From contig CP129475.1 in NCBI GenBank assembly GCA_030583785.1, positions 351,559 to 415,558 of the forward strand: a DNA stretch of 64,000 nt. The letters are read 5' to 3'. This DNA is from Candidatus Dojkabacteria bacterium (lineage in GTDB: Bacteria; Patescibacteriota; Dojkabacteria; B142; OLB20). The first letter of the stretch is position 1, and every line of letters starts with the position of its first letter. A program made the translations under genes and the position numbers. Shown piece by piece: positions 988 to 60,038 of this stretch. Below the pieces are notes generated by a model. That model searched no databases. It worked only from the letters and a program-made list of their open reading frames with translations, and had not been told where the DNA came from.

Positions 988-2037
988 ATGGCTAATAAGT
1001 CTTCTACAGATACAGATGAGTTGTTATCAAAATTAGACGATCTTTTTACCAAAGCCAAGGCCAATATCAAGAGTATTTCCTCTAAAGAAGAGCTTGAACT
1101 GGAAAGGATCAGATATACTGGCAGAAAGTCCGAACTGACCTCAATACTTAGAGGCATCAAAGACCTTAGCCCAGAAGGAAAACAAGCAGTAGGTAGCAGA
1201 GCCAACGAAATCAGAATTCAAGTTGATCAACTTATTGACCAAAAAAGAGATCAGTTGATTCAAGAGAACATCGAAAAGCTGTCAAATGCAGAAAAAATTG
1301 ATGTAACAGTCCCAAGCCAGCTTAAGAATGGACACCAGCATATTATTTCACAGATGCAGGCAAAGATAGAGGATATCTTCCAAAGAATGGGTTTTCAAGT
1401 TGTTTATCCATACGAAATCGACACAGATTATAACAACTTTCAAGCTGTAAATATTCCAGAAGGACACCCCGCTCGTGACAGTTGGGATACTTTCTGGACA
1501 GAAGACGATCACATAGCGGTGACACATACATCGTCCATGCAAAATAGAGTTCTAAAATCATCAGAACCACCAATTAGAGTTATTGTCCCAGGAAGGACTT
1601 TTAGACACGAAGCTACAGACGCAAGGCACGAGCATACCTTTACACAGGTAGAAGGCGTTTATGTAGATAAGGGAATAACCTTTGCAGACATGCTTGGCAC
1701 ACTAAAAGCTTTCTTTTCCGAATTCTTTGAGAAAGACATACAAATCAAGTTTTCTCCGGACTTCTTTCCATTCGTCGAACCAGGGGGAATGATATCAATC
1801 GATGTTTCAGACTTTGGAGACACTTTTAAAGAAGTGACAAAAGGAACAGGCTGGTTGGAAATCTTGGGTTGTGGCATGATTCATCCGAAAGTTCTAGAAA
1901 TGGGGGGTATTGATCCAAATGTATACAGCGGATTTGCTTGGGGCTTTGGCTTAGAAAGACTTGTGATGCCAAAATTCGGTATAGAAGATGTAAGACATTT
2001 CTATAAAGGAGACTTAGCTTTTATTAGACAGTTTTAA
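988..2037 (+). CDS. pheS: Phenylalanine--tRNA ligase alpha subunit
   Basis: 349 aa. Class II aaRS motifs are present (FRHEATDARHEHTFTQVEG, GFAWGFGLERLVM). The ATG is confirmed at 988 and the stop overlaps the pheT ATG (TAATG). Confidence 0.9.
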   Translation: MANKSSTDTDELLSKLDDLFTKAKANIKSISSKEELELERIRYTGRKSELTSILRGIKDLSPEGKQAVGSRANEIRIQVDQLIDQKRDQLIQENIEKLSNAEKIDVTVPSQLKNGHQHIISQMQAKIEDIFQRMGFQVVYPYEIDTDYNNFQAVNIPEGHPARDSWDTFWTEDDHIAVTHTSSMQNRVLKSSEPPIRVIVPGRTFRHEATDARHEHTFTQVEGVYVDKGITFADMLGTLKAFFSEFFEKDIQIKFSPDFFPFVEPGGMISIDVSDFGDTFKEVTKGTGWLEILGCGMIHPKVLEMGGIDPNVYSGFAWGFGLERLVMPKFGIEDVRHFYKGDLAFIRQF

Positions 2038-4475
2038 TGTATATCTCATATAAATGGCTGTTAAGTTATCTGCCTGATTTAGATAACTTTGAGCCACAAA
2101 CAATCGCAGTTGCCCTTACCGACTCATTGGCCGAGGTCGAGGGAATCACATATATCAGAAATGGACTCAAGAATATTGTCAGTGCAGAGGTTAAATCAAA
2201 AGAACCACACCCTAGTAACGATAAACTAAGTGTATGTGTTGTTTACGATGGCAGAGAAGAAAGAACCATAATATGCGGTGCAGCTAATGTCAGAATGGGG
2301 CAAACTGTGGCAGTCTGCTTACCTGGTGGATCAGTGTTTAATCCATCAGAAGAACTAGGCAAGCAAAGCATTATAAAAATTGAAGAGAAAAAGATTGGAA
2401 GCGTAGCTTCGTTTGGAATGATATGCTCTGCAAAAGAGCTGGGACTTGCAGATGACCATGACAGTATTCTAGAACTTGAACCAGAAATCCAAGTCGGCAA
2501 CGAACTCGTAAGCACTCTAACAGATATTGTTTTCGAAATTGAAAACAAATCAATTAGCCATCGCCCTGACTGCTTCTGCCATAAGGGGATCGCCAGAGAA
2601 CTATCTGCTATATTAAAAATTGACTTTGTTGATGTAAAGCACGAGGTATCGCTTATTCCAACGGCCGACATGCCATTAGATGTTTCTGTAAAGGTAACAG
2701 AAAGTCTTTGTTCAAGGTTCTGTGCTATCACACTCAGCGATGTAGTCGTTAAAGATTCTCCTTTATGGTTAAAATCAAGACTTACAGCAGTTGGGATTAG
2801 AAGTGTCAACAATATTGTTGACCTTACTAATTTTGTCATGCTTGATAAGGGGCAACCGATGCATGCTTTTGACTATGACAAACTATCGAATAATGAAGTT
2901 ACGGTGCGTACAGCCAAAAAAGATGAACAGCTAAATGCACTTGATAACGCAACCTACACCCTAGACGAATCAATGGTTGTTATAACTGATGCATCTAATA
3001 AGCCAAAGAGTATTGCCGGTCTTATTGGTGGACTTGACAGCGAAATATCCAACGAAACAAAAAATATTGTCTTAGAAGCAGCAACTTGGGAGATGTATAA
3101 CATTCGTCGCACTTCAAGGCAACTTGGTGTTCGTACAGAAGCAAGTATGCGCTTTGAAAAGGGCCTAGATCCAAATAACGCACTAGATTCACTAAAGAGT
3201 GCTTTGTTCTATGTACAAGATCTTGCCGGCGGAGAAGTTGCTTCTCCAATTATTGATGTGTATCCTAAGCCTAGAGAAGAACACAAGATATCTCTTCCAA
3301 TGCCTATGATCAAGCGTTTTATCGGCATAGACATCAGTAAGGACAACGCAATCGAGATGCTTGAACTACTTGGTCTTACACACCTAGAAGAAGAAAGCTC
3401 TTCTGGTGAAACCGAATTAGATACCGAAATCTTTGAGATTCCAACATTCAGAAACGACTTAAAGATACCACAAGATTTACTAGAAGAAATTGCCAGACTC
3501 TATGGCTACGACAATATTAAACCAACTCTGCCTGAAAAAGACCTGAAACCTTCCCCAACAAACAAAGTTAGTAAATTAAACTCAAAGATAAGATCTATAC
3601 TCACATCAACTGGTATGGATGAAGTTATTACTTATAGCTTTGTTAATGAAAAACAATACAAAGTATTGAATTTGTCGGCTAATAGTTGTCTGAAGATAAA
3701 GAATCCAATATCTCCTGAATTGTCTTTACTTAGAACCAGTCTAATTCCTGGGTTGATATCTAAACTAGACTATAACACTAGTCAATTCGATGAGTTTGCT
3801 TTATTCGAAATCGGTCGAATCATTCAAAAAGAACTAGACGAAGAGGGGATTCATAAGCAACCGTATAAAGTATCAGGAGTCTACTATAGTAAAGACTCAG
3901 AAGAAGCCTTCTCTAAAATCAAATACTATGTCGAATCTCTACTTACAAAATTAAACATCCCAAATATCTCGTTCTCCAACGAAAAATTACAAGATAATAG
4001 TGGTCTCATCAAAGCAATGCACCCAGGAAGATTCTGCAATGTTTACTCCGGAACTACCCAAATCGGTGTTTTAGGAGAACTTAATCTTGCGGCGGCTCAC
4101 AGGCTCGAATTAGACGGTAGATCATCGCTATTCGAACTTGATCACCAACAATTATTAGAATTATCATCAGACTTCGCTCAGTACAAACGAATCTCTGAAT
4201 ATCAGTTTGTTGATCGAGATTTAAGCTTCTGGTTAGCGGATTCCATCAAATTCGACGAAATATTAACAGTTATTAATGACCAGAAGGATTCTCTTATACA
4301 AAGAGTCGAGCTTCTAGATTTGTTTACCTCAGAGAAAAACGCAGGTAAAAAAAGCTACACTATCTCTGTAAGGCTTCAGAGTTACGAAAAAACGCTGACA
4401 GAAGAGGAGATCAACAAATCAATCGAACAGATAACTGCAAGTCTAATTAAAAAGCTAAAAGCTGAAATCCGCTAG
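2037..4475 (+). CDS. pheT: Phenylalanine--tRNA ligase beta subunit
   Basis: 812 aa. It has an N-terminal tRNA-binding domain, a B3/4 domain (NNIVDLTNFVMLDKGQPMHAFDYDKL), B5 and a C-terminal FDX-ACB region. It is translationally coupled to pheS. Confidence 0.9.
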   Translation: MYISYKWLLSYLPDLDNFEPQTIAVALTDSLAEVEGITYIRNGLKNIVSAEVKSKEPHPSNDKLSVCVVYDGREERTIICGAANVRMGQTVAVCLPGGSVFNPSEELGKQSIIKIEEKKIGSVASFGMICSAKELGLADDHDSILELEPEIQVGNELVSTLTDIVFEIENKSISHRPDCFCHKGIARELSAILKIDFVDVKHEVSLIPTADMPLDVSVKVTESLCSRFCAITLSDVVVKDSPLWLKSRLTAVGIRSVNNIVDLTNFVMLDKGQPMHAFDYDKLSNNEVTVRTAKKDEQLNALDNATYTLDESMVVITDASNKPKSIAGLIGGLDSEISNETKNIVLEAATWEMYNIRRTSRQLGVRTEASMRFEKGLDPNNALDSLKSALFYVQDLAGGEVASPIIDVYPKPREEHKISLPMPMIKRFIGIDISKDNAIEMLELLGLTHLEEESSSGETELDTEIFEIPTFRNDLKIPQDLLEEIARLYGYDNIKPTLPEKDLKPSPTNKVSKLNSKIRSILTSTGMDEVITYSFVNEKQYKVLNLSANSCLKIKNPISPELSLLRTSLIPGLISKLDYNTSQFDEFALFEIGRIIQKELDEEGIHKQPYKVSGVYYSKDSEEAFSKIKYYVESLLTKLNIPNISFSNEKLQDNSGLIKAMHPGRFCNVYSGTTQIGVLGELNLAAAHRLELDGRSSLFELDHQQLLELSSDFAQYKRISEYQFVDRDLSFWLADSIKFDEILTVINDQKDSLIQRVELLDLFTSEKNAGKKSYTISVRLQSYEKTLTEEEINKSIEQITASLIKKLKAEIR

Positions 4476-4485
4476 ATTTTTTATT

Positions 4486-7467
4486 CTAAATTACTGTGAC
4501 TGTAATTTGACCTGAGTCAATCGTTACACCTTTTCTTTGACCTCTTATTTGCAATATATAACTTCCAGGAGAGGTGGGAACAGACCATACGCAATCAGAA
4601 GAATTACATGTTGAACCCGAATTGCTGCCATTAACAAGAAGTTGTACCTGATTTAGCTGAGTTCCCGAATAACTATATGACACATTAGTAATTCCTCCAC
4701 CAGCAATGTTTGCACCGCTAGAGGGCGAAGTTATCGAAATTGTACCGAGTTTCTCAACAGAGATCGTACTGGTTCCAGTTGCTCCAGATGAATCTGTCAA
4801 TTTAACGCTAACAGAATATGTACCTGGCGACACACTACCTAAATCGTATACGGCAGAGTGGGGAAGGGAATCTACTGTTTGGAGCAAGTTCCCGTTGAAG
4901 AATATTTCTGCTTTATTAACTTTTCCATTTGTAGAGAACCCATTAAAACTGATTGTTAGACTGTTTGATTCTAGTAACTGACCATCGCTTGGAGAAGTGA
5001 AGGCCGCCCATGGTTCGTTTCCTCCACCAGGGCTCCGATTTATGTCGCAGGGCTGAGTAGGCAAGGATGAAACACCAACTTCTGGGTGAGCACTCAACCA
5101 TTCATCGAGAAAACCCTGCATTCTGCTATCAGGCATTCTATATATTCTGTAACTTAAAGTTTCTGCCATGCCAACAGCAATATCAATATCTCGTGCTAGA
5201 CGGTCTTTTTGATCTTTACAAACGGTAGCACTTTGCACACTAACATAAGATGGAACTCGGATTCCTGCTATACCTAGATCAGATCCAGCTACTCCTTGGC
5301 AAGATGCACCTTCCTCTGCACTACATGTTCCTGCTGAAATAACGCCCTCTGGTCTTGTGAAAGGAGTCTTTGGTATCGAACCACCTATTCTTCTAACAAA
5401 CTCAGCTATCCAAGGACGAGCAGTTCTAAATCCAGAAGCACCTGGTCTCATGCTTGAGTTGTCATTATTTCCAATCCAGCCAACGACCACAATTTCAGGA
5501 GTATATGTGGCAAACAGTGTTTCTCTCTGAGATTCGGAGGTTCCTGTCTTACCAGAAATATCTCTTCCGTCCCAGCTATCGCCTGGGCCACCGGTTCTAC
5601 CATTAAGTATGTCGTTAATAATATATACGCCCCTTGGATCAGCAACCCTTTCTGGTTGAGGTTCGTACTCGTAAATGATATTGCCGTTTCTATCTTCAAT
5701 CTTAAGAACGACCTCATGTCTGGTAAGATCTCCACCACTAGCAAAAACTCCATAGGCTTGAGCGAGTTCAATAAGTTTGACATCTGCACCTCCGACCGAG
5801 ATTGAAGGACCATATCCTGCAGGATTATTAAATGTCGTATATCCCCATTTTTGCATTTCTTTAACAAAATTTTCGACACCAAGTTGATTAACTAAATAGA
5901 TTGCCGGTATGTTTCTGGATTCTACTAATTGCCATCTAACGCTATTAATTCCGGTGAAGCCACCCTCGTAGTTTTTTGGCTGGTAATTACCAATCTTAAT
6001 CGGAACATCGGCTAATAATGAACCCGCATTGATAATACCGTTCATGACAGCCTGATAGTAAACCATTGGTTTCATAGACGATCCAAAGGACTGTAAAGTA
6101 TCAGTAATATTCACATTAGGTTCAAATTTACAGCTAACACCAAGAGTACAGCCTTCCGGACTTGGATCTGCAAAGTAATTTTTCGAGCCAACCATAGCCA
6201 GAATTTCTCCGTTCTTCGGATTTAGCGCGACTATAGCAGCATTCTCTGCACCAAATTGTTTACCTTGAACATCGACACCTTTCTGCACCTGCTCTTGTGC
6301 TATCTCCTGATATTCAAGATCTAAGGTTGTATATATTCGATATCCACCGGTTTCTATGTCTGATAGAGCAAACGGTTCGCCATTGTTATAAGGCCTTTGC
6401 TGTAATAGCTTCTGCACATAGAAAACAAAATGCGGAGCATTAATCTGGAATCTAGGTTTTTCGTAAACCAACTCAAATTCTCTGGCTTCTTCAATCATTT
6501 CTTTGGTTAACAACTGTGCGTCTTCACCTTCAGCTTCCTTGATTCTTTCGTTGATCGTATCCATATACCTTTCCATTTGACCAAGCACATACATTTGTCT
6601 GCCTTTTACAAGCTCTTGAGCTCTTTCCGGATTTGCAGATTTTGTTGGAGAAAGTCGAGTAGGGTCTTGTGGTATTGCTGCCAGAATTGACATTTCTGCC
6701 AAATTTAGATCTTTAAGATCTTTTCCAAAATATACCTTAGCAGCGCTAGTTACTCCATAAATATTACTTCCCTCTGGTGCAACTGTAAGATACATTTCTA
6801 GAATTTCTTCTTTGCTTCTTTCGCGTTCTATTTGTAAGGCCAGTATCACTTCTTTTATTTTTCTCTCTAATTTTCTTTCGTTTGTGAGAGCTGTCTGCTT
6901 GATTAGCTGCTGAGTTATTGTGCTACCGCCACAAGCGGATTCGCCTTCGCGCAAGAACACGAATCCGCAACGAATAATTGCAGTTAAGTCGACACCAGGG
7001 TGAGAGTAGAAGTCAATATCTTCTGCTGCCAGAAAGGCCCATTGCAGTAGCTGAGGTACCTCGCTGAGTGCAACCGGATCACGATTTTCATCACCAAAAA
7101 CTCTATATAGTTCTTTGCCGTTACGATCATAAATAACACTGGCAGCACTTTTGTTACCAAAAGGCTTATCTCTACTTGGTAGATCTTCGGTAATTGATTG
7201 TACATAGGCTAATCCAAAGATCAGTCCTACAGTAATAATTATTAACATAACAGCTCCAAAGCTGTAGAGAAACTTTCTTACCTTTTCTTGTTTGAGCTTT
7301 GCTGCTATTCTGGCACGAATGCCTTTTTTGCCAGCCTTATTTCCTGAAGAACGGCTCCACTTGCGAGAAGAGAAGTTTCTTGAAGACCTAGTCTTAAACC
7401 TTTTATTATCTTTACCTGCTGACAATTTGATTTTCGTAGAATAACCCATTTTTGTTGATATCTTCAA
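4486..7467 (-). CDS. Class A penicillin-binding protein (PBP1A-type transglycosylase/transpeptidase) with a C-terminal Ig-like extension
   Basis: 993 aa. It has an N-terminal TM anchor, GT51 motifs (RIAAKLKQE, FLAAEDIDFYSHPGVD, GGSTITQQLIK), a transpeptidase core (SxxK-type SSMKP, SGK(T)G) and an extra C-terminal segment of roughly 250 aa rich in S/T/G that is predicted beta/Ig-like. Confidence 0.85.
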   Translation of the reverse strand: MKISTKMGYSTKIKLSAGKDNKRFKTRSSRNFSSRKWSRSSGNKAGKKGIRARIAAKLKQEKVRKFLYSFGAVMLIIITVGLIFGLAYVQSITEDLPSRDKPFGNKSAASVIYDRNGKELYRVFGDENRDPVALSEVPQLLQWAFLAAEDIDFYSHPGVDLTAIIRCGFVFLREGESACGGSTITQQLIKQTALTNERKLERKIKEVILALQIERERSKEEILEMYLTVAPEGSNIYGVTSAAKVYFGKDLKDLNLAEMSILAAIPQDPTRLSPTKSANPERAQELVKGRQMYVLGQMERYMDTINERIKEAEGEDAQLLTKEMIEEAREFELVYEKPRFQINAPHFVFYVQKLLQQRPYNNGEPFALSDIETGGYRIYTTLDLEYQEIAQEQVQKGVDVQGKQFGAENAAIVALNPKNGEILAMVGSKNYFADPSPEGCTLGVSCKFEPNVNITDTLQSFGSSMKPMVYYQAVMNGIINAGSLLADVPIKIGNYQPKNYEGGFTGINSVRWQLVESRNIPAIYLVNQLGVENFVKEMQKWGYTTFNNPAGYGPSISVGGADVKLIELAQAYGVFASGGDLTRHEVVLKIEDRNGNIIYEYEPQPERVADPRGVYIINDILNGRTGGPGDSWDGRDISGKTGTSESQRETLFATYTPEIVVVGWIGNNDNSSMRPGASGFRTARPWIAEFVRRIGGSIPKTPFTRPEGVISAGTCSAEEGASCQGVAGSDLGIAGIRVPSYVSVQSATVCKDQKDRLARDIDIAVGMAETLSYRIYRMPDSRMQGFLDEWLSAHPEVGVSSLPTQPCDINRSPGGGNEPWAAFTSPSDGQLLESNSLTISFNGFSTNGKVNKAEIFFNGNLLQTVDSLPHSAVYDLGSVSPGTYSVSVKLTDSSGATGTSTISVEKLGTISITSPSSGANIAGGGITNVSYSYSGTQLNQVQLLVNGSNSGSTCNSSDCVWSVPTSPGSYILQIRGQRKGVTIDSGQITVTVI

Positions 7468-10560: not shown

Positions 10561-12616
10561 TTCGTGAAGAACTTACAATTATTATGTAGAATGCGTCGCC
10601 ATTTCCATGAATTGTATTCTTTTTTGCTTCTTGATGGTCCATTTCCAAATGGTTAGCAAATCCTGATGCGAACTCGTATTCTCTAATATTTGGATTATAC
10701 AAGAAAAACAGCCTGTCTATACGACCATATTCTATTGGTGAAAGTATAGGTGATTCATTTTCATCTAATTCACCTCTCAATACTGGTCCACTATCTAGAA
10801 TCCTTAAGGCAGGTACTTCATTCTGCAACACATATATTCCGCGTTCTTGCAAACTGGTCAATAAGTCTCGTAATACTTTTGGACTTGTTATAGAACCTCT
10901 AATATGGCCATATGCTCCATATGAAAGTACCATCGGCTTCAGACGTAGATTAAGATTATTCGGGTCATCAATATTTTGACCCTTGCTTGCTAGGTAATTT
11001 CTTAACTTATCCGTAAAAATAGATGCCAAATCTTCTTGTTCTAGGCCTTCTATTACCTGTGCAATGCTATCGGCTATACTGATAGATTCTGTTTTTGTAA
11101 CCAAATCTAAAAGATCATCAATTTGTTTGATAATAGCTAATCTGTCTGAGTCATCCGTCACATCAGTACGATCCAAGAAATAATTCATGGCGTCCTTAAA
11201 AGAAGTTCCAATATTTCTATGCGCAATTGCCTTGAAAACGCTTAGCAGATTTGCAGCATTAGGAAACCTTCCCTGCAATTCATCTAATGAATAGCCCGCC
11301 TTTTCTAATGCAGGATTTGGTTTTCCGCTTTTAACTGCACCTAACAGGTTTTTTACTCTTACAATTTTTCTATCAAGTAAGTTGGTTTCTGCAATTGTAA
11401 GAAGTTCCTCAGAGAACAAATCGTCTAAACCTCTGACAATAACAGCCATTCCTAGCTCTTCCATGTATTCCTTTGTATCATTAAGCGGTAGAGCTTCGCT
11501 TCCTGGAAGATCAACATTTGGTGTTAATGATCTTTCTCTCAACAAACGGAGCAACTTCTCTTGTTGATAAATATCTGGAAGATCGAGTTCGGCATTCGGA
11601 TTAATGAGCTTACTTACAGGAAGAGAAGAGCGCACATAAAAGATTGTATCATCGGCTTCCGCAAGCTTTCTTTCGGCTTCCTCTATTGCACTAATATCAC
11701 CATCAAAACGAGCAAGATCTAAGATAATTTTGCATTTCTGAATATTTCTAAGATGCGCTTCTAAATCAGAAGGGCTCATTACCTGATCAAATCCTATTCT
11801 TTCTCGCGTAAGCTCCTCAGAGGCAAGTTCACCTGGTTGCAACATCATTTCTTCTGCTCGAATTGCATTGTATTTTTTTTCTGTAAGGGTAGCTACGGCA
11901 ATCTTTTTACCAGTGTATTCTCTAATACACTCCAGACTGCCATCAAACGCAGCCATCATTTCAGAATTCCCGTTTTCATCCATAAAAATCATGCGCATGA
12001 AATTGTACCTAGCAAGAGAGTTTTCAAACTCAAAAACTCTTTCCATCAGCACTTGGTCAAGAACATCTTCTGGTAGCTGATCAGCAATATCTAAAAATGC
12101 ATCAGGTAAAGCAGCCATATCAATCTGCAATCCCCAGTTGACAAAATTACCCTCTGGATCATTGCCTGCTGCATATGCCATATCTTGTCCACTAACTTCT
12201 CGCTCTCTTTGAACCAAACGGTTGTAAGCCCGGGCATAACGGTTAATAGACCTTGTTATCGAAGACAGCACGCTTTCTGGGTACTCGACTACACCTTTAC
12301 CTGACTCTCTGTCCTCTTGCTCATGTTTGAAAGAATCTGGAACAAGATCCCCATTTTTTAGCATTTTATATGCTGGTATTCTGTCATTAGTAACAATTGG
12401 ATTTAATACAACCGCTTGAACTCTATTCGCCTCAAGGAATGCTCGAGCATGTTCAATTGTGAATTCTGCGGGCTGAAGAGGTTCATTACCTGCTAATAGT
12501 CTTTCGTCTAACATTGATTCTTCATAAAAAATAAAAAACCTCCCTTGCGGGAGGTTGATTTGTAAAACATATTTCTTTGAACTAATTAACCTCCCGTGCA
12601 GAATTAGCCCATACAA
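10544..12616 (-). CDS. Large conserved protein of unknown function, first gene of the operon. The track start is a TTG; ATG 12514 (MLDERLL...) is the more probable start.
   Basis: 690-aa ORF with no recognisable catalytic signature. The first 34 codons overlap a hairpin and T-run structure, so they are more likely 5' leader than coding. Confidence 0.7.
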   Translation of the reverse strand: MYGLILHGRLISSKKYVLQINLPQGRFFIFYEESMLDERLLAGNEPLQPAEFTIEHARAFLEANRVQAVVLNPIVTNDRIPAYKMLKNGDLVPDSFKHEQEDRESGKGVVEYPESVLSSITRSINRYARAYNRLVQREREVSGQDMAYAAGNDPEGNFVNWGLQIDMAALPDAFLDIADQLPEDVLDQVLMERVFEFENSLARYNFMRMIFMDENGNSEMMAAFDGSLECIREYTGKKIAVATLTEKKYNAIRAEEMMLQPGELASEELTRERIGFDQVMSPSDLEAHLRNIQKCKIILDLARFDGDISAIEEAERKLAEADDTIFYVRSSLPVSKLINPNAELDLPDIYQQEKLLRLLRERSLTPNVDLPGSEALPLNDTKEYMEELGMAVIVRGLDDLFSEELLTIAETNLLDRKIVRVKNLLGAVKSGKPNPALEKAGYSLDELQGRFPNAANLLSVFKAIAHRNIGTSFKDAMNYFLDRTDVTDDSDRLAIIKQIDDLLDLVTKTESISIADSIAQVIEGLEQEDLASIFTDKLRNYLASKGQNIDDPNNLNLRLKPMVLSYGAYGHIRGSITSPKVLRDLLTSLQERGIYVLQNEVPALRILDSGPVLRGELDENESPILSPIEYGRIDRLFFLYNPNIREYEFASGFANHLEMDHQEAKKNTIHGNGDAFYIIIVSSSRNAKAA
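12515..12600 (-). promoter_or_regulatory. Candidate transcription attenuator or leader (terminator/antiterminator)
   Basis: The minus strand reads ...ACGGGAGGTTAATT...(about 34 nt)...AACCTCCC GCAA GGGAGGTT TTTTATTTTTT, followed by ATG 12514. The middle segment can pair with either flanking GGGAGGTT copy. The 3' pairing, followed by the U-run, forms an intrinsic terminator. Confidence 0.45.
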
Positions 12617-12812
12617 AAATGAGCATAAAAATATAAAAGAGGTTTTGGTTCACAGAAATTTTAGACATGCGGTTTTTATAACACAGATATATTTATATGG
12701 CAAGAAAAAAAGTAAAAAATCCAAAGTGGAGTAGGGTAGAACATGCCAATACTAACCGAAACATAACCGAATAAAATCCTCCCCGTACGACGACCTATAA
12801 TTATCAATATCC

Positions 12813-52603: not shown

Positions 52604-54547
<1,944 letters not shown>

Positions 54548-54573: not shown

Positions 54574-55434
54574 ATGTCAAACTCAGCAAGCCAAATCAAG
54601 GAAGTCAAGAAATCTGAATTTATTAATAAAACAGAGAAGAACTCAAAAGGGGTAAGTTATTCAACAATTGGGACAACGCTTCAAGCGCTTAGTGTTCAAC
54701 TCGACGAAGGAGAAAAGATTAATTCCGAAGCTGGAAAAATGTCTTGGATGACAAGCAATATCAAAATGAAAACAAAAGGGCAGGGGATTGGCAAAATCGT
54801 TTCTAGAGTTCTCGCCAACGAATCGTTCTTTATTAACGAATTTACCAGCGAAGCCGGAACCGGAATAGTAACTTTTTCTACAGACGAAGCAGGTAAAATT
54901 GTTCCTGTTGAACTTGCTTCAGACAAACCGGGTATCGTATTTCAAAGAGGTTCATACCTTTGCTCAGAAATTGGAGTAGAAAGATCAACAGTACTAATTA
55001 AACGCTTAACAGCAGGAATATTTGGTGGGAAAGGTTTTATACTGCAAAAAGTTAAAGGAGAAGGCTCTGCTCATCTTATCGCAGATGGAGAAGTAGTTAT
55101 GTACGAACTTTCCGCAGGAGAGCAAATGCTTGTAGATCAGGGAAACCTCCTTGCCTTTGAAGACACAGTAGATTTCGATATTCAAACCGTAAAAGGTGGA
55201 GCTATGAATTGGTTCTTCGGAGGGGAAGGTATTTTCCTAGGGTCACTTAAAGGTCCTGGCAAAGTATGGATGCAAACTCGAAAAATATCCGTGCACGGAG
55301 CAGCAGTTGCTGCTTCAGCTGCAAACAACTACTCTGGAGCCAGTCAAAATCCTTTAGGATGTATTTTCGGTTTAATAATTAGTGGCGTAATTTTTGGATG
55401 TGTAATTGCTTCTTCACTAATTATGAATATTTAA
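54574..55434 (+). CDS. AIM24/DUF124-like protein with a C-terminal hydrophobic tail
   Basis: 286 aa. It has the pattern GGEGIFLGSLKGPGKVWMQT, which I recall as typical of the TIGR00266/AIM24 family, and a C-terminal IFGLIISGVIFGCVIASSLI. Confidence 0.45.
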   Translation: MSNSASQIKEVKKSEFINKTEKNSKGVSYSTIGTTLQALSVQLDEGEKINSEAGKMSWMTSNIKMKTKGQGIGKIVSRVLANESFFINEFTSEAGTGIVTFSTDEAGKIVPVELASDKPGIVFQRGSYLCSEIGVERSTVLIKRLTAGIFGGKGFILQKVKGEGSAHLIADGEVVMYELSAGEQMLVDQGNLLAFEDTVDFDIQTVKGGAMNWFFGGEGIFLGSLKGPGKVWMQTRKISVHGAAVAASAANNYSGASQNPLGCIFGLIISGVIFGCVIASSLIMNI

Positions 55435-55450
55435 TTATTAATAACCTAGT

Positions 55451-55597
55451 ATGGAACTACTGCTTATTATCGTCTGTACAATAACAGTATTCATGCTAAT
55501 AACTCTATTCGTAGCTGCTGTTGCAATCAGCAAAAAAGACGAAAGCCCAACGAAGGCCCAAAAGTTTACATTAGACAGACAAAAGGAAATTAAATAA
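55451..55597 (+). CDS. Small single-pass membrane peptide (48 aa), translationally coupled to gyrA
   Basis: [48 protein letters not shown]. Its TAA stop overlaps the gyrA ATG (TAATG at 55595-55599). It is not in the ORF track. Confidence 0.4.
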
Positions 55598-58200
55598 TGC
55601 CTGACGAATCACAATTAACAATTACAGATAAGCGAATCAAGGAGCAAAACATTACCGAAGAAATGCGCTCCAGCTATATCAATTATGCCATGAGTGTTAT
55701 TGTGGCTAGGGCACTGCCAGATGTTAAAGACGGACTAAAGCCTGTTCAGCGAAGAATACTTTATGCAATGTATAAACAGGGCTTTCTTCCTTCATCCTCT
55801 TACAAAAAGTCTGCCAGAACAGTTGGAGAGGTTATCGGTAAGTATCACCCTCATGGTGATACGGCAGTCTACGATGCTATGGTCAGAATGGCTCAAGATT
55901 TCAGTTACAGATATATTCTTATCGACGGTCAAGGAAACTTTGGCTCAATCGACGGAGACAGCGCCGCTGCCATGAGGTATACAGAATCAAGACTGCACAA
56001 AAATGCTATTCGCATTCTTACAGATTTAGAGAAAAAAACAGTTGATTTCGTATCTACATACGACGGAACTCATAATGAACCAGTAATTCTGCCATCTCTC
56101 TTACCAAATCTACTTCTAAACGGAGCAGAAGGAATTGCAGTGGGAATGGCAACAAAAATTCCACCTCACAATCTTGGAGAACTTGTTGATGCGATGGTTG
56201 AAATGATCAACAAAGGCGAGGCAACAACCACAGATGAGATTGATTACTCATATCTTGATACCATAAAAACCGTTGCCGATATTGATAATCTCAGCAATGA
56301 AAGATTTCCGCACTTTAATTCCGAAGTAGAGATTTCAGAAATTCTAAAACACATACCTGGACCAGATTTCCCCACAGGTGCAGAGATTTACGACCAAGAA
56401 GAAATAAAGCGAGCATATATGACCGGCAGAGGTCGAATTCTAATGCGGGCAATCGCAAAGATCGAAGAAAATAAAAGTGGAAAGTTCCAAATCATTATCA
56501 CAGCGCTTCCATATCAGGTAAATAAGGCAAATCTAGTAAGTAAAATCGCAGAACTTGTTAAAGATAAAAAGATTGAAGGAATTTCTGACATCCGAGACGA
56601 ATCAAACAAACTTGGAATTAGAATTGTTATTGATCTAAAACGAGACAGTAAGCCAAAAACATTGCTCAACAAGCTGTATAAATATACAGAAATGCAAAAG
56701 GCATTTAATGCCAACATGCTGGCACTTGTAAATGGAGAGCCAAAACTGCTCAACCTCAAAAGAATCCTTGAACTTTTTATTGAACACAGGCAAGAAATAA
56801 TTATTCGCAGAAGTGAATATGATTTGGCACGAGCACGCGAAAGAGAACATATCCTAGAAGGATTGATGATCGCACTTGATAACCTAGACGAAGTTATTAA
56901 TACAATTCGCTCATCAAAAGATGTAGATATCGCCAAAGAGAACTTGATGAAAAAGTTCAAATTAAGCGAAATTCAATCACAGGCAATCCTAGATATGCAA
57001 CTTAGAAGACTTGCTGCCCTTGAAAGACAAAAGATAGAAGAGGAATACAAACAAATTAAAATCACTATTGCAGATCTTCTGGCTTTGTTAAGCTCTGCAA
57101 GCACTATCCTCAAAACCATTGTTGACGAACTTACAGAGCTTAAAGAAAAATCGGGTGATATTCGCCGAACAAAGGTTCACAAAGGCAAAGTAGGAGAATT
57201 CAATGAAGAGGACCTTATTGCCAAAGAAGAGGTTATTGTAACAATCAGTGAACAAGGTTACATCAAACGCATGAAGCAAGATACCTATACCTTGCAAAAG
57301 CGAGGAGGAGTGGGCAAAAAGGGAATGACAACCAAAGAAGATGACGGTGTAGCTCACATATTGAGCTGTAATACTCACGACGAGATATTATTCTTCACTA
57401 GCAAAGGAAGAATGTTTAATCTTCGAGTTTATGATATCCCAGAATTTGGTAGAACAGCTCGAGGACAAGCAGTTATTAATCTAATTAATATTGAACAAGA
57501 CGAAACCATTCAAAGTGTTTTAACCAGAAATCCTGATGGTCGAATATACGACGAAGATATCACCCAAGAAGGGGAAACGAAAACAGAATCTGGGAAATAC
57601 AAATTCTTGTTTATGGCAACAAGACATGGCATTGTTAAGAAAACATCACTCGAAGAATTTGCAAATATTCGAGCAAATGGACTGATTGCAATTAAGCTCT
57701 CCGACGGTGACGAGCTTGCCTGGGTTAAACCAACAACTGGTAAAGATGAAATCATGTTAATTACCAGAAAGGCTAGGTGCATTCGCTTTAAAGAAGCCGA
57801 TGTCCGCGAAACGGGTAGGGCAACTATGGGAGTAAAGGGTATAACCTTCAAGTTCAAAGAAGATGAAGTAATTGTCATGGATGTTATTCGTAAGCTCGAA
57901 GAATTTGTTCTAAGTGTTTCAGAGCTTGGATACGGTAAAGTCACCGATCTTTCAGAATTTCCAACCCAAAACAGAGGTGGTATGGGAGTATTTACTGCCA
58001 GGGTAAATAAGAAAACTGGCGATCTTGCATCGGCCAGAATAATAGATCATCCCGATCTTGAATTATTAATAATAACTCAAAGTGGACTTGCCGTTCGTAT
58101 ACCAACAAATGAATTACCAAAGCGCAGTAGGCAAACAGCCGGTGTAAGGCTAATGAAAATGAAATCTGATGATACGGTTACAGCTATTGCAATTATTTAA
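55597..58200 (+). CDS. gyrA: DNA gyrase subunit A
   Basis: 867 aa: [38 protein letters not shown], an active-site Tyr region (AAMRYTE), and a C-terminal beta-pinwheel. Confidence 0.95.
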
Positions 58201-58305
58201 TGATTTGTTGTAACATTGATTCGGATAGTTCGTTAATGTATATAAGAAAACCAGTTATATAATGAGAAATTGTTGTCTCACAAATAAGATGATTTTTATC
58301 AACAA

Positions 58306-58367
58306 GACCGGCTAAGGGAGAGGTTTAGCATGTTTACAAAACCTCTCAATTTTGAGAGGTTTTTAAT
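58306..58367 (+). promoter_or_regulatory. Three-segment terminator/antiterminator element with an embedded 15-codon uORF upstream of greA
   Basis: GAGAGGTTT (58308-16), AAACCTCTC (58329-37) and GAGAGGTTTTTAATTTTT (58344-61). The middle segment can pair with either flank; the 3' pairing plus the U-run forms an intrinsic terminator. The uORF is ATG 58320..TAA 58367, encoding MFTKPLNFERFLIFN. It is preceded by GGGAGAGG with a 6-nt spacer and its codons span the terminator. Confidence 0.5.
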
Positions 58368-58382
58368 TTTTAATTAAATTAA

Positions 58383-58814
58383 ATGCAGGATAACTCAAGA
58401 AAAAATCGAATAATTAACAAGATCAATGACCTAAAGGCTCAAATTCTTGAGCTAGGATCGCAGATTGAGCAAGAAAGAAATGAAAACAACGAAGAAGATA
58501 CAGCTATCAGACAAGAGCTGCTTGATAAACGCGAAATTCTTGAGCAGCAAATCTTAGAATTACAAAACGGCTTAACCTTAGCAAGTAATTCAGCTGAACT
58601 TCCTGCTGACCTTGGCAAGACATTTACAATAGATATGAACGGATCAAGTAGAGAATTAACAATTGTACTTCCAGACGAGGCAAACCCTTCAATGGGCAGT
58701 ATCTCTATTGATTCACCTATAGCTAAAGCGTTGTTAGGTAAAAAACAAGGAGAGATTGCTAGCGTTTCAACACCTATGGGAAATCAGCAATATCTGATCA
58801 AAAAAGTTGTATAA
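58383..58814 (+). CDS. greA: Transcription elongation factor GreA-like (short)
   Basis: 143 aa with an N-terminal coiled-coil and a C-terminal FKBP-like domain (ISIDSPIAKALLGKKQGEIASVSTPMGNQQYLIKKV). Confidence 0.7.
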   Translation: MQDNSRKNRIINKINDLKAQILELGSQIEQERNENNEEDTAIRQELLDKREILEQQILELQNGLTLASNSAELPADLGKTFTIDMNGSSRELTIVLPDEANPSMGSISIDSPIAKALLGKKQGEIASVSTPMGNQQYLIKKVV

Positions 58815-58844
58815 CTCCTGACAAGATGAGATAAAAACATGAAC

Positions 58845-58866
58845 AGAGTAGGGGATCCCCTACTCT
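58845..58866. repeat. Perfect 22-bp palindrome at the convergent greA/xer junction
   Basis: AGAGTAGGGGATCCCCTACTCT. It overlaps the last codons of the recombinase gene. There is no U-run on either side. Confidence 0.6.
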
Positions 58867-60038
58867 GAAAGATCCTTTAATGGATGATGCTTCTGATGCG
58901 TCTGTTCTGCAACCTTATCGCTCGAATGAACATACTTACTTGTAGTTGATAATGACGCGTGTCCTAAAAGCCTTTGAATTACTGCAGGATTAGCTCCATT
59001 CTCAGCTATATAGGTAGCGAATCCATGCCTTAGACTATGCGCACTGGTAGGAACAATGATCCCAAGGTAAGTGCGATACTCCTTGATCTTAGATTGAAGA
59101 TAATTTACGGATATTCTTACCACATAAGGATCTTGGGTTGAATGTCTCAGGCCTCGATAAGGAATGAATAGTGCCGGGAAATCGTCATCTCTGGTCTGTA
59201 GATACCTTTCTATATAGAAACTGCATCTAGGAGTTAGGTATACAAATCTTTGCTTTCTGCCTTTACCTATTATATATATTTTTGAATCTCCAAGATGTGA
59301 ATTGTCAGTAAGTTTTAGATCGTGTCTATCAAGGTTAATTAATTCAGAGATTCGCATACCTGTAGAAAAAAGCATTTCAAGCATGGCTCGGTTTCTAAAA
59401 CGGATTTTCCTTTTCTTTTCATAAGTTTCGGGAGCTTCGACTAAACGGACAAGTTCTTCAAATTCTGCGACTTGAGTTTCTTTCTTTTCACTTTTAATTA
59501 GTTTTATTGAATCAGGAGGTAAAGGAACTTGATGATCGATATCGATCAAAAATCTCAAATACGAGCGAATAGCTGATAACATGCGATTTACACTACGACT
59601 ACTTAGTCGTCCAGAATACATTGAAAGCCTTCTAGAGGCACTAGAGCTCGATTTCTTCTTTTCGCTTGTCCCATGTGCTTTTCCGTAGACATTAGTGGGT
59701 TTATACTTTTTAAGTACGGTCAAATACCTACCAGTCCTTAAAAATTCAACATACCTACTGATATCTAGTTTTTTTAAAGATACAAATGCAAGTTTATTGC
59801 TAAGTATGAACGCTGCCAGTATTTCGAGGTCTCGTTTATAGTTATCAACCGTCTCCTGGCTATAATTCGTATTAACCAGATCTAAGAAAAACTCAGTCTG
59901 CATAGGTAGGACATCTAATAATTTGGTACCTTTGTCAACCATATCACTAGAGAGGGCCTCTGAGCCTGTCTCAGTAGCACTCTCGTTATTCGCACTATCC
60001 TGACTAATTAACGGGGTAGTGGTATCCATATTTATCAA
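58860..60038 (-). CDS. Tyrosine recombinase (XerC/XerD-like, phage-integrase family) with an S/T-rich N-terminal extension
   Basis: 392 aa. The C-terminal catalytic motifs are HSLRHGFATYIAENGANPAVIQRLLGHASLSTTSKYVH (the catalytic Y is in KYVH) and the R...H..R pattern. Confidence 0.8.
   Translation of the reverse strand: MINMDTTTPLISQDSANNESATETGSEALSSDMVDKGTKLLDVLPMQTEFFLDLVNTNYSQETVDNYKRDLEILAAFILSNKLAFVSLKKLDISRYVEFLRTGRYLTVLKKYKPTNVYGKAHGTSEKKKSSSSASRRLSMYSGRLSSRSVNRMLSAIRSYLRFLIDIDHQVPLPPDSIKLIKSEKKETQVAEFEELVRLVEAPETYEKKRKIRFRNRAMLEMLFSTGMRISELINLDRHDLKLTDNSHLGDSKIYIIGKGRKQRFVYLTPRCSFYIERYLQTRDDDFPALFIPYRGLRHSTQDPYVVRISVNYLQSKIKEYRTYLGIIVPTSAHSLRHGFATYIAENGANPAVIQRLLGHASLSTTSKYVHSSDKVAEQTHQKHHPLKDLSE

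What the first reader, a model, noticed from the sequence alone, without database searches (positions are those of the whole stretch)
58306..58382. gyrA-greA intergenic attenuator with a Phe-rich 15-codon uORF and strong Shine-Dalgarno
Three segments, GAGAGGTTT / AAACCTCTC / GAGAGGTTT+TTTAATTTTT, allow alternative A:B or B:C (terminator) pairing. The architecture matches the leader found upstream of the unknown operon at 12515-12600. A uORF (MFTKPLNFERFLIFN) starts 6 nt after GGGAGAGG. This is one of the very few strong SDs in the window; most genes here lack one. Its codons run through both the B segment and the terminator stem, so ribosome occupancy would melt the terminator. Four of its 15 codons are Phe. 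This could be a transcription-translation coupled attenuator controlling greA, or a programmed partial terminator for gyrBA.
Basis: seen in the sequence. Interest (0 to 1): 0.6.

Follow-up and report, generated by a model that had tools for sequence, protein, structure and literature searches.

The report
Leader-ORF attenuator upstream of greA

Summary
The sequence is exactly as described. A is GAGAGGTTT at 58318-26, B is AAACCTCTC at 58339-47, C is GAGAGGTTT plus a T-run at 58354-71, and a 15-codon uORF runs 58330-77.

The three-segment layout is not chance. All six known lineages of this gyrA-greA locus have it, with compensatory changes in both helices. So do three lineages of a second operon (window 12703-12526, minus strand). 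None of 28 other terminator-like hairpins has it.

- The uORF is 15, 3 or 1 codons, or absent, in relatives. The equivalent ATG is lost in a 95% relative of the second locus.
- The genome does not use SD sequences (5 of 53 genes, background 11%).
- Three of the four Phe codons come from the terminator loop and T-run.

What is conserved is a different ORF upstream (58262-58315, MRNCCLTNKMIFINKTG*; 15-19 codons in every lineage). Its stop codon lies within 4 nt of A.

Best model is ribosome-mediated attenuation. A ribosome finishing the leader ORF masks A, so the B:C terminator forms. A lagging or absent ribosome leaves A:B, which allows read-through into greA.

greA leader attenuators are known elsewhere (Rfam RF01769, not matched here). 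This is a new variant of a known kind. The mechanism is inferred, not shown.

The parts
58239..58261 (+). TATATA-N11-TATATA double box, 39 nt after the gyrA stop. Candidate promoter or operator of the greA leader; function inferred only.
   Evidence: The two TATATA boxes are exactly 17 nt apart start-to-start in all six lineages. This is the only perfect match in the 64 kb window. No consistent -35/-10 consensus was found across lineages.
58262..58315 (+). Conserved leader ORF MRNCCLTNKMIFINKTG*, stop TAA at 58313-58315. An alternative in-frame start at ATG 58289 gives MIFINKTG*.
   Evidence: Every lineage has one ATG ORF of 15-19 codons ending -4 to +3 nt from segment A. It is the only ATG ORF of 2 or more codons in the spacer in L002, L012, L009 and L017. 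Chance per lineage is 5-7%, giving a product of 8e-7 over five. L002 and L012 share IKVILTG* through 5 synonymous nucleotide changes and different stop codons.
58318..58326 (+). Segment A (GAGAGGTTT), the 5' arm of the antiterminator. It starts 2 nt after the leader ORF stop.
   Evidence: The A:B duplex is -14.1 kcal/mol, with 0 of 2000 shuffles as good. Before C is transcribed, A:B is the MFE fold in all lineages.
58339..58347 (+). Segment B (AAACCTCTC), the shared arm that pairs with either A or C.
58354..58371 (+). Segment C (GAGAGGTTT, 58354-58362) plus the T-run TTTTTAATTTTT (58360-58371). Together with B this forms the intrinsic terminator.
   Evidence: Terminator scan gives 58338-58363, 11 pairs. 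The MFE fold agrees. It is conserved in six lineages with differing loops.
58330..58377 (+). It is present but not conserved, and is probably incidental to the A-B loop, B, C and the T-run.
58383..58814 (+). Regulated gene: a 143-aa GreA/GreB-family factor.
   Evidence: Pfam PF01272, 4.6e-18. Best PDB matches are GreA 1grj at 2e-5 and Gfh1 at 3e-5. Named GreA/GreB family in Candidatus Dojkabacteria.
55597..58200 (+). gyrA, the upstream gene. Its transcript also reaches the B:C terminator.
   Evidence: Pfam. The order gyrB-(AIM24)-gyrA-greA-xerC-like(-) holds in all lineages.
12526..12703 (-). Second attenuator of the same design. TTGCCA (12703-12698), N17, TATAAA (12680-12675), 6 nt, then leader ORF 12668-12582 (MSKISVNQNLFYIFMLIFVWANSAREVN*) running through A (GGGAGGTT, 12595-12588). 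B is AACCTCCC (12556-12549), C is GGGAGGTT (12544-12537), and the T-run reaches 12526. The gene ATG is at 12514.
   Evidence: Orthologous leaders L014 and L018 keep the design with different stems. Downstream lie an unknown 656-aa protein and two M20 peptidases.

Best explanation
This is a ribosome-mediated (leader-ORF) transcription attenuator in front of the Gre-factor gene.

Transcripts entering the spacer come from gyrBA read-through, from a promoter at the conserved double TATATA box, or from both. They carry a short ORF (58262 or 58289 to 58315) whose stop codon sits 2 nt before segment A.

As RNA polymerase moves on, B (58339-47) emerges before C. B therefore pairs with A if A is free. 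That A:B hairpin prevents the B:C terminator from forming, and polymerase reads into greA.

If a ribosome is translating closely behind and is on the last codons or the stop codon of the leader ORF, its footprint (about 13 nt past the stop, to about 58326) covers A. B then stays free and pairs with C. With the T-run, transcription ends at about 58364-58371.

greA would therefore be turned down when translation keeps pace with transcription, and turned up when ribosomes lag, stall or are absent.

Shown by sequence and comparison: the three arms, their alternative pairings, their covariation, the conserved ORF and the fixed position of its stop.

Inferred: that the ORF is translated, where transcripts start, the direction of the response, and the physiological signal.
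For: (1) Terminator. B:C is the MFE fold, z = -3.9, and a terminator-scan hit.

(2) Conservation of all three arms. They occur in six lineages whose Gre proteins are 53-66% identical to the window's, while the rest of the spacer has diverged. Arms as A / B / C:
- window: GAGAGGTTT / AAACCTCTC / GAGAGGTTT
- L012: TGAGAGGTT / AAAGCCTCTC / GAGAGGCTTT
- L017: GGAGGCTT / AAGCCTCTCC / AGAGGTTT
- L009: TTAGAGGGG / ATCCCCTCTAA / AGAGGGAT

(3) Covariation on a hand-anchored alignment of 8 leaders.
- A:B: 83.8% of cells paired, 6 of 10 pairs changed on both sides (2 of 500 shuffles reach this), score 0.364 (0 of 500); all slid registers are 57.5% or lower.
- B:C: 86.3% paired, 3 of 10 pairs changed on both sides, score 0.286 (0 of 500).

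(4) Specificity. No other terminator-like hairpin in the window or related loci has an upstream A-like complement.

(5) Leader ORF. There is one ATG ORF of 15-19 codons per lineage. Its stop lies -4 to +3 nt from A (directly before A in L017) and 24-34 nt before B. Chance is 5-7% per lineage. Synonymous-only divergence is seen between L002 and L012: GTG/GTC, TTG/CTC, ACT/ACC, GGC/GGG, with stops TAG/TGA.

(6) Folding. Before C exists, A:B is the MFE in all lineages (-9.5 to -15.8 kcal/mol). With 16 nt masked from the last sense codon (a ribosome on the stop), B:C forms in all. In L009, L017, the window's second locus and L018, A:B remains the MFE even with C present, so something must mask A for termination to occur.

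(7) Independent replicate. The second gene family has the same layout in three lineages with unrelated stem sequences (GGGAGGTT / AACCTCCC; GGGAGT / GGCTCCC; GGCGGGAG / CTCCCGCC). Their stops are +3 nt after A, overlapping A, and 4 nt before A. No co-directional upstream gene is present, so those terminators can only be leader terminators.

(8) Lack of an SD on the leader ORF is normal for this genome.

(9) Precedent. The greA/rnk family ranks seventh among gene families predicted to be controlled by 5' terminators, with antiterminators, in Proteobacteria, bacilli and clostridia (PMC2965389). The E. coli greA leader terminates two-thirds of transcripts (PMC2836576).
Against: - There are no expression data of any kind.
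- No consistent sigma-70-type promoter is found upstream of the leader ORF across lineages, so the transcription start is unknown. The window's long ORF start (58262) abuts the second TATATA box and might lie outside a transcript started there. The ORF would then be 8 codons (58289).
- The peptide is poorly conserved overall. Only K(AAG)-[M/V]-[I/V/N] and a T/S-G end recur. There is no run of codons for one amino acid, so no obvious signal.
- An ORF in the right place arises by chance in 5-7% of shuffles per lineage, and the lineages are not independent.
- A:B is weak in L001 (16% of shuffles as good) and marginal in L002, L014 and L017 (3-5%).
- In the window itself B:C is thermodynamically preferred even without a ribosome, so the default state rests on co-transcriptional kinetics.
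- The covariation alignment was anchored by hand on the complementary cores, which favours the structure.
- Transcription-translation coupling has not been shown in candidate phyla radiation bacteria.
Confidence: 0.6

Rival explanations
1. The same A:B / B:C switch operates, but it is set without ribosomes. Candidates are the Gre factor itself acting on polymerase at the leader terminator (autoregulation, as at the E. coli greA leader GraL), polymerase speed or NTP level, or another RNA-binding protein. On this view the upstream ORF is incidental, or only modulates the switch.
For: The switch itself is well supported. In E. coli, GreA represses its own gene through the leader terminator region in cis and needs an unidentified extra factor (PMC6829880). 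Known greA leaders have terminator/antiterminator pairs with no reported leader peptide (PMC2965389). The invariant AAG-[A/G]T and GGCTA nucleotides could be a protein or RNA contact rather than codons. No amino-acid-specific codon run is present.
Against: It does not explain why all six lineages keep an open frame of 15-19 codons with the stop within 4 nt of A, nor why three lineages of an unrelated operon do the same. It also does not explain the synonymous-only changes between L002 and L012. The second operon (peptidases) has no reason to respond to a Gre factor.
Confidence: 0.22
2. The uORF at 58330-58377, driven by the GGGAGAGG Shine-Dalgarno sequence, is translated through B and C. Ribosome occupancy melts the terminator, in the manner of pyrBI, and the Phe codons act as the sensor.
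For: The uORF, the 6-nt spacing and the four Phe codons exist. SD-like sequence plus ATG TTT is shared by the window and its closest distinct relative L001. The Rfam Phe_leader model gives a weak hit (21.5 bits, E = 0.17).
Against: The uORF is 3 codons in L001 and ends before B. In L009 it is ATG-TAA, and it is absent in L002, L012 and L017. The equivalent ATG in the paralogous leader is ACG in a 95% relative. The genome shows no SD usage. Phe codons at uORF positions 8, 11 and 14 are the loop and T-run in frame. The Phe_leader hit is far below its gathering score (55), and a similar hit occurs on the opposite strand (23 bits). greA has no link to Phe supply.
Confidence: 0.06
3. B:C is a plain, unregulated intrinsic terminator of the gyrBA operon. 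Segment A and the upstream ORF are chance features of a purine-rich, AT-rich spacer, and greA has its own start downstream.
For: B:C is the first terminator after gyrA. A weak promoter-like match (TTGAGA-17-TAAATT, 58352-58380) overlaps it.
Against: A is conserved and covaries with B. In several lineages A:B is more stable than B:C, which would be harmful for a plain terminator. Only 11 nt separate the T-run (ending 58371) from the greA ATG (58383) in the window, and the promoter-like match would start transcription at or beyond the ATG. The same design occurs where no upstream co-directional gene exists. Ordinary terminators in the same sequences lack an A-like arm.
Confidence: 0.05

Closest known systems
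Enterobacterial greA leader / GraL (Rfam RF01769; PMC2836576, PMC6829880)
   Same: An intrinsic terminator sits in the region just upstream of a Gre-factor gene and limits how many transcripts reach the gene. AT-rich, closely spaced promoter-like boxes lie upstream; E. coli has two overlapping promoters.
   Different: There is no sequence or structure similarity. RF01769 scores 127.5 bits on E. coli but gives no hit here even at E up to 10. GraL has only 19 nt before its terminator, and the papers read here describe no leader ORF. It is regulated by GreA itself, and the short RNA also acts in trans.
greA- and rnk-leaders predicted in Proteobacteria, bacilli and clostridia (Naville and Gautheret 2010, PMC2965389)
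   Same: A 5' terminator with a clear alternative antiterminator lies upstream of greA-family genes. These leaders were noted as a recurrent but sequence-diverse solution.
   Different: Those leaders were defined by the terminator, with an antiterminator then detected in each cluster. No leader peptide ending at the antiterminator arm is mentioned in the passage read. None came from the candidate phyla radiation.
Classical leader-peptide attenuators of amino-acid operons (trp, his, phe, thr, leu, ilv; general knowledge; PMC1183508)
   Same: There is a short leader ORF, mutually exclusive antiterminator and terminator hairpins, and a ribosome at the leader stop codon that masks the antiterminator's 5' arm so the terminator forms.
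   Different: There is no run of codons for a cognate amino acid. No conserved 1:2 (anti-antiterminator or pause) hairpin is present, so an untranslated leader should read through rather than super-attenuate. The regulated gene is a transcription factor, not a biosynthetic operon. The Rfam Phe_leader model is not matched (21.5 bits against a cut-off of 55).
Ribosome-mediated attenuators that sense general translation inhibition (bmrB-bmrCD, PMC4191407; yxjB, PMC6851288; vmlR-type, general knowledge)
   Same: A short uORF without amino-acid-specific codon runs lies upstream of an antiterminator/terminator pair. Slowed or stalled ribosomes on the uORF favour the antiterminator and induce the downstream gene.
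   Different: Those elements control antibiotic-resistance genes in Firmicutes and respond to ribosome-targeting drugs. Here the targets are a Gre factor and a peptidase operon, the inducer is unknown, and there is no sequence relationship.
pyrBI attenuator of E. coli (general knowledge)
   Same: The outcome depends on how closely the ribosome follows the polymerase.
   Different: In pyrBI the leader ORF runs through the terminator, and a close ribosome prevents termination. Here the conserved ORF stops before the antiterminator arm, so a close ribosome should cause termination.

Membership tests
Rfam RF01769 Enterobacteria greA leader (GraL) | Covariance-model score at or above the gathering score (60 bits) | tested here: not met
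   There is no RF01769 hit in the window at the gathering threshold, nor in 58180-58420 at E up to 10. As a positive control, the E. coli K-12 greA leader scores 127.5 bits.
Rfam RF01769 Enterobacteria greA leader (GraL) | Intrinsic terminator between the promoter region and the greA start | tested here: inconclusive
   The terminator at 58338-58363 plus T-run ends 11 nt before the greA ATG. The promoter is only inferred from the conserved double TATATA box.
Rfam RF01769 Enterobacteria greA leader (GraL) | Read-through repressed by catalytically active GreA, acting in cis through the leader | not testable with these tools
   This needs in vivo reporter assays (PMC6829880).
Leader-peptide (ribosome-mediated) transcription attenuators | Short ORF in the leader, conserved as an ORF | tested here: met
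   An ORF of 15-19 codons is present in six of six greA lineages, and of 17-28 codons in three of three lineages of the second operon. Actual translation was not tested.
Leader-peptide (ribosome-mediated) transcription attenuators | Mutually exclusive antiterminator and terminator hairpins sharing one arm | tested here: met
   Shuffle tests are.
Leader-peptide (ribosome-mediated) transcription attenuators | The leader stop codon is placed so that a terminating ribosome covers the antiterminator's 5' arm | tested here: met
   Stop-to-A distance is -4 to +3 nt in all six greA lineages (directly before A in L017). In the second family the stop overlaps A or lies within 4 nt of either end of it.
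Leader-peptide (ribosome-mediated) transcription attenuators | Tandem regulatory codons for the amino acid made by the operon | tested here: not met
   No single-amino-acid run appears in any of the six peptides. The downstream gene is a Gre factor.
Leader-peptide (ribosome-mediated) transcription attenuators | Upstream 1:2 hairpin (pause / anti-antiterminator) | tested here: inconclusive
   A small hairpin (GCTAAG/TTTAGC) enclosing A appears in the terminator-state folds of the window, L001 and L002 only. It is not seen in L012, L009 or L017.
Leader-peptide (ribosome-mediated) transcription attenuators | Promoter upstream of the leader ORF | tested here: inconclusive
   For greA there is no consistent consensus promoter, only the conserved TATATA-N11-TATATA. 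For the second family, L014 has TTTACA-18-TAAAAT at 10 of 12 matches, followed 6 nt later by the leader ORF ATG. L018 has TTGAAT-16-TATAAT. The window has TTGCCA-17-TATAAA, read by eye and not called by the tool.
Rfam RF01859 Phe_leader | Score at or above the gathering score (55 bits) | tested here: not met
   The score is 21.5 bits on the + strand and 23 bits on the - strand. This is a generic hairpin plus T-run resemblance.
Translation-inhibition-sensing attenuators (bmrCD, yxjB, vmlR type) | Induction by ribosome-targeting antibiotics, with a resistance gene downstream | not testable with these tools
   The downstream genes are a Gre factor and peptidases. Inducibility needs an experiment.

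The most novel reading that the evidence does not exclude
The leader ORF acts as a gauge of transcription-translation coupling that feeds back on the factor repairing its failure. When ribosomes keep up with RNA polymerase, they mask A and greA is attenuated. When ribosomes lag (starvation, translation stress), polymerase runs uncoupled and is prone to backtracking. A:B then forms and the anti-backtracking Gre factor is induced.

A parallel attenuator with a hydrophobic, signal-peptide-like leader controls a peptidase operon. Together they would be a small translation-status regulon in a reduced, SD-less candidate phyla radiation genome. They would also be the first evidence that such bacteria use coupled transcription-translation for regulation.
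Probability: 0.25. Interest if true: 0.75.

Novelty: new variant of a known kind. Interest (0 to 1): 0.5.

Why it matters
Attenuators in front of greA are known from Proteobacteria and Firmicutes, but how they are set is still unclear, even in E. coli. Here the anatomy points to a concrete input, the position of a ribosome on a leader ORF. That links expression of the factor rescuing backtracked polymerase to how well translation follows transcription.

It would also document leader-ORF attenuation, and hence functional transcription-translation coupling, in candidate phyla radiation bacteria. The papers searched held nothing on this. The genome starts translation without Shine-Dalgarno sequences.

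In practical terms, this gives two small, comparably built elements that can be tested in heterologous or cell-free systems. They also provide a search pattern (an ORF stop abutting a direct repeat of a terminator's 3' arm) for annotating such genomes.

Tried and rejected
- An Rfam scan of the whole window found only tRNA-Ser. A permissive scan of the spacer gave sub-threshold noise on both strands.
- A search of species-representative genomes with the Gre protein alignment found only two lineages that were already in hand. The first metagenome scan found nothing. The second, with a wider alignment, added one new lineage, L017.
- I looked for a consistent sigma-70 promoter upstream of the leader ORF in six lineages. 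None was found, so the promoter claim was downgraded to an inference.
- I considered an extended -10 and a leaderless start for the greA leader ORF by eye. Neither is consistent across lineages. A leaderless start is plausible only for the second family.
- I considered the GGGAGAGG stretch as a true SD. This was rejected on the genome-wide SD census.
- I considered Phe sensing. This was rejected because the Phe codons are by-products of the loop and T-run, and the uORF is not conserved.
- I considered a riboswitch or protein-binding aptamer upstream of A. No conserved helix was found by eye, and the conservation there follows the reading frame. No consensus fold of the region upstream of A was run.
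- I considered Cys enrichment in the leader peptides (7 of 99 residues against 0.8% in the proteome) as a signal. It is not convincing: I estimated about 3% Cys codons for random sequence of this composition, a rough figure worked out by hand, not run as a test.
- Two searches, one for leader-peptide attenuation in the candidate phyla radiation and one for SD usage in Patescibacteria, returned nothing.
Full report
**Source and context**

The window comes from a Candidatus Dojkabacteria (WS6, candidate phyla radiation) genome. The 143-aa protein encoded at 58383-58814 is 100% identical to a protein that NCBI names GreA/GreB family elongation factor of that group. GC content is 38%.

Local gene order is gyrB (52610-54547), an AIM24-family gene, a 48-codon ORF, gyrA (55597-58200), a 182-nt spacer, and the Gre-family gene. 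A convergent XerC-like recombinase gene follows. The Gre protein matches only the C-terminal Pfam domain. Its best solved relatives are E. coli GreA (2e-5) and Thermus Gfh1 (3e-5).

**Check of the observation**

All stated sequence features are present at the stated positions:
- A: GAGAGGTTT, 58318-58326
- B: AAACCTCTC, 58339-58347
- C: GAGAGGTTT, 58354-58362, running into TTTTTAATTTTT (to 58371)
- uORF: ATG 58330, 6 nt after GGGAGAGG, encoding MFTKPLNFERFLIFN*

B:C is the minimum-free-energy fold of 58300-58385 (-22.6 kcal/mol, z = -3.9). It is also a terminator-scan hit.

Among 19 terminator-like hairpins in the window, only this one and the one at 12556-12537 (minus strand) have any upstream repeat of 6 nt or more. 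Across the window and related loci, 36 hairpins were examined. Only the leader terminators have an upstream complement to the 5' arm at -10 kcal/mol or better, while the other 28 are -7.5 or weaker.

Five of 53 genes have a 4-mer SD core at -20 to -4, against 10.8% of random positions.

**Relatives**

Protein searches found only five further lineages of this Gre protein, at 53-66% identity. All carry it directly downstream of gyrA. Strains at 99% identity have an identical spacer.

In the five diverged lineages most of the spacer is unalignable, but the three arms are always there. Arms are given as A / B / C:

| Lineage | A | B | C |
|---|---|---|---|
| L001 | GGGAGAG | AAACCTCTCTC | GAGAGGTTT |
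| L002 | GAGAGGCT | AGACCTCTC | GAGAGGTTT |
| L012 | TGAGAGGTT | AAAGCCTCTC | GAGAGGCTTT |
| L017 | GGAGGCTT | AAGCCTCTCC | AGAGGTTT |
| L009 | TTAGAGGGG | ATCCCCTCTAA | AGAGGGAT |

When B changes, A and C change with it. On a hand-anchored alignment of eight leaders (six greA, two from the second operon):
- A:B has 83.8% of cells paired and 6 of 10 pairs with changes on both sides (reached by 2 of 500 shuffles). Its covariation score is 0.364 (0 of 500), and all slid registers are 57.5% or lower.
- B:C has 86.3% paired, 3 of 10 pairs changed on both sides, and a score of 0.286 (0 of 500).

The alignment was anchored on the complementary cores, which favours the structure. The independent shuffle test of the best upstream duplex to B gives these fractions of shuffles as good as observed:

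| Leader | Fraction |
|---|---|
| window | 0 of 2000 |
| window second locus | 0.002 |
| L012 | 0.002 |
| L009 | 0.0045 |
| L017 | 0.03 |
| L002 | 0.04 |
| L014 | 0.05 |
| L001 | 0.16 |

The ORF starting in the A-B loop varies widely:
- 15 codons in the window
- 3 codons in L001, ending before B
- ATG-TAA in L009, 14 nt after the G-run
- absent in L002, L012 and L017

In the paralogous leader at about 12.5 kb, the equivalent ATG is ACG in a relative whose downstream protein is 95% identical. The Phe codons at uORF positions 8, 11 and 14 are simply the hairpin loop and the T-run read in frame. GGGAGAGG is the A arm, and an SD function is unlikely in a genome without SD enrichment.

**A different conserved ORF ends at A**

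In every lineage there is one ATG ORF of 15-19 codons upstream of A. Its stop codon lies -4 to +3 nt from the start of A (directly before A in L017):

| Lineage | Leader peptide |
|---|---|
| window | MRNCCLTNKMIFINKTG* (58262-58315) |
| L001 | MQNTHLCKMVIKATSG* |
| L002 | MDHSCFKTIKVILTG* |
| L012 | MGCKSSMYKMNFIKVILTG* |
| L009 | MKIQDFMLIIKVNLTT* |
| L017 | MRVQTGNILKMICSSC* |

In L002, L012, L009 and L017 it is the only ATG ORF of 2 or more codons in the whole spacer. Shuffling gives such an ORF in 5-7% of trials per lineage. The product over five lineages is 8e-7, which overstates significance because the lineages are related.

L002 and L012 encode the same IKVILTG* through five nucleotide differences that are all synonymous, and they use different stop codons. 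That is what selection on a translated frame looks like. Elsewhere the peptide is loosely conserved as K-[M/V]-[I/V/N]...T/S-G. The Lys codon is AAG in six of six lineages, although AAG makes up only 31% of Lys codons in the window's genes. This is unexplained.

The stop lies 24-34 nt before B in all lineages.

**Folding**

- Transcripts ending before C fold into A:B in all six lineages (-9.5 to -15.8 kcal/mol).
- With C present, B:C is the MFE in four lineages, and A:B remains the MFE in L009 and L017.
- With 16 nt masked from the last sense codon (the reach of a ribosome on the stop codon), B:C forms in all.

**The second locus**

On the minus strand the layout is as follows:
- TTGCCA (12703-12698), N17, TATAAA (12680-12675), then 6 nt
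- ATG 12668, opening a 28-codon ORF (MSKISVNQNLFYIFMLIFVWANSAREVN*)
- the ORF runs through A (12595-12588) and stops 3 nt after it
- B (12556-12549), C (12544-12537), the T-run, and the gene ATG at 12514

The operon encodes an unknown 656-aa protein and two M20 peptidases.

Two diverged orthologous loci keep the design with unrelated stems:
- L014: TTTACA-18-TAAAAT, called by the scan tool at 10 of 12 matches. Six nt later comes ATG, opening MTNLSIIFVIFLSLIRA*. Its stop TAG overlaps A (GGGAGT). B is GGCTCCC and C is GGGAGCC.
- L018: TTGAAT-16-TATAAT, then MKTKVLSIIFVLFILITRV*. Its stop TGA is 4 nt before A (GGCGGGAG). B is CTCCCGCC and C is GGCGGG.

In all three the upstream neighbour is divergent or absent, so the terminator can only act on its own leader. 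In the window's copy and in L018, A:B is the MFE even with C present, and masking A gives the terminator. This is an independent replicate of the architecture. It supports reading the greA element the same way.

**Mechanism proposed**

The classical logic of leader-peptide attenuation fits (general knowledge; PMC1183508). A ribosome that reaches the end of the leader ORF while polymerase is transcribing B and C covers A, so B pairs with C and transcription stops in the T-run. A ribosome that lags, stalls more than about four codons before the stop, or is absent leaves A free. A:B then forms first and polymerase continues into greA.

There are two differences from the textbook cases:
- There is no amino-acid-specific codon run.
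- There is no conserved 1:2 hairpin. A small hairpin enclosing A appears only in the window, L001 and L002.

The element therefore looks like a sensor of general translation pace. In that respect it resembles the bmrB-bmrCD and yxjB leaders (PMC4191407, PMC6851288).

Shown: the anatomy, its conservation and its covariation. Inferred: translation of the ORF, the transcription start, the sign of the response and the signal.

**Open points**

- The two TATATA boxes 17 nt apart (58239, 58256) are conserved in all six lineages and unique in the window. They do not form a standard -35/-10 pair, and no consistent consensus promoter is found.
- greA may be fed by a promoter there, by gyrBA read-through, or by both. 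Either way the switch gates entry into greA.
- If the second box is a -10 element, the window's and L001's leader ORF would start at the inner ATG (58289, 8 codons).

**Comparison with known systems**

- The greA/rnk family is already known as one of the gene families most often preceded by 5' terminators with antiterminators (PMC2965389).
- The E. coli greA leader terminates two-thirds of transcripts, yields the small RNA GraL and mediates GreA autoregulation with an unknown cofactor (PMC2836576, PMC6829880).
- Rfam holds that leader as RF01769. It scores 127.5 bits on E. coli and nothing here, even at E up to 10. This element is therefore not a member of that family, although it does the same kind of job.
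- The weak Phe_leader hits (21.5 and 23 bits on opposite strands, cut-off 55) are generic.
- The one full-text search on leader-peptide attenuation in the candidate phyla radiation found nothing.

**Verdict**

It is a new variant of a known kind. It is of moderate interest, mainly for the link it suggests between translation pace and a Gre factor, and for showing this type of control in a candidate phyla radiation genome.

Noticed in passing
window 12526-12703 (minus strand); L014 1313-1480; L018 1200-1375: The leader peptides of the second attenuator family are hydrophobic and look like signal peptides or transmembrane segments. L014 is MTNLSIIFVIFLSLIRA and L018 is MKTKVLSIIFVLFILITRV, sharing LSIIFV; the window's is MSKISVNQNLFYIFMLIFVWANSAREVN. 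In L014 and the window the ORF ATG sits 6 nt after the -10 box, suggesting a leaderless message. The operon encodes an unknown 656-aa protein and two M20 peptidases.
   Followed up: partly
whole window (53 gene starts): There is no Shine-Dalgarno enrichment upstream of genes: 5 of 53 have one, against 10.8% at random positions. Upstream regions are A/T-rich instead. The 16S rRNA 3' end is not in the window, so the anti-SD tail could not be read.
   Followed up: partly
window 58239-58261; the same element in L001, L002, L009, L012, L017: TATATA-N11-TATATA has an invariant 17-nt start-to-start spacing in six lineages and is unique in the window. It is partly palindromic (TATATAA-N9-TTATATA) and is not a standard -35/-10 pair. 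It could be a pair of overlapping -10 boxes or an operator.
   Followed up: partly
window 58286-58291 and the equivalent leader-ORF codons in five other lineages: The Lys codon before the conserved M/V is AAG in six of six lineages, although AAG makes up only 31% of Lys codons here. The last-sense-codon-plus-stop motif GGCTA(A/G) is also conserved in three lineages. This hints at a nucleotide-level constraint on top of coding.
   Followed up: no
window 55451-55597: A 48-codon ORF sits between the AIM24-family gene and gyrA, ending where gyrA starts. It is also called as a gene in relatives (48 aa in L003, L005 and L006; 55 aa in L001) and has no Pfam hit on record.
   Followed up: no
window 54574-55434; L009 1-3742: An AIM24-family gene is inserted between gyrB and gyrA in most lineages. 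It is absent in the L009 lineage, where gyrB is followed directly by gyrA.
   Followed up: no
window 58844-58867: A perfect 10-bp palindromic hairpin (CAGAGTAGGG GATC CCCTACTCTG) lies between the convergent Gre-factor and XerC-like recombinase genes, overlapping the recombinase stop. It is probably a shared terminator.
   Followed up: no
L003 (GCA_019454465.1) 1392-4001 and 4478-5470: In this 99%-identical assembly no gyrA gene is called, and the recombinase is split into 45-aa and 251-aa pieces. This suggests frameshift errors or pseudogenes in that assembly.
   Followed up: no
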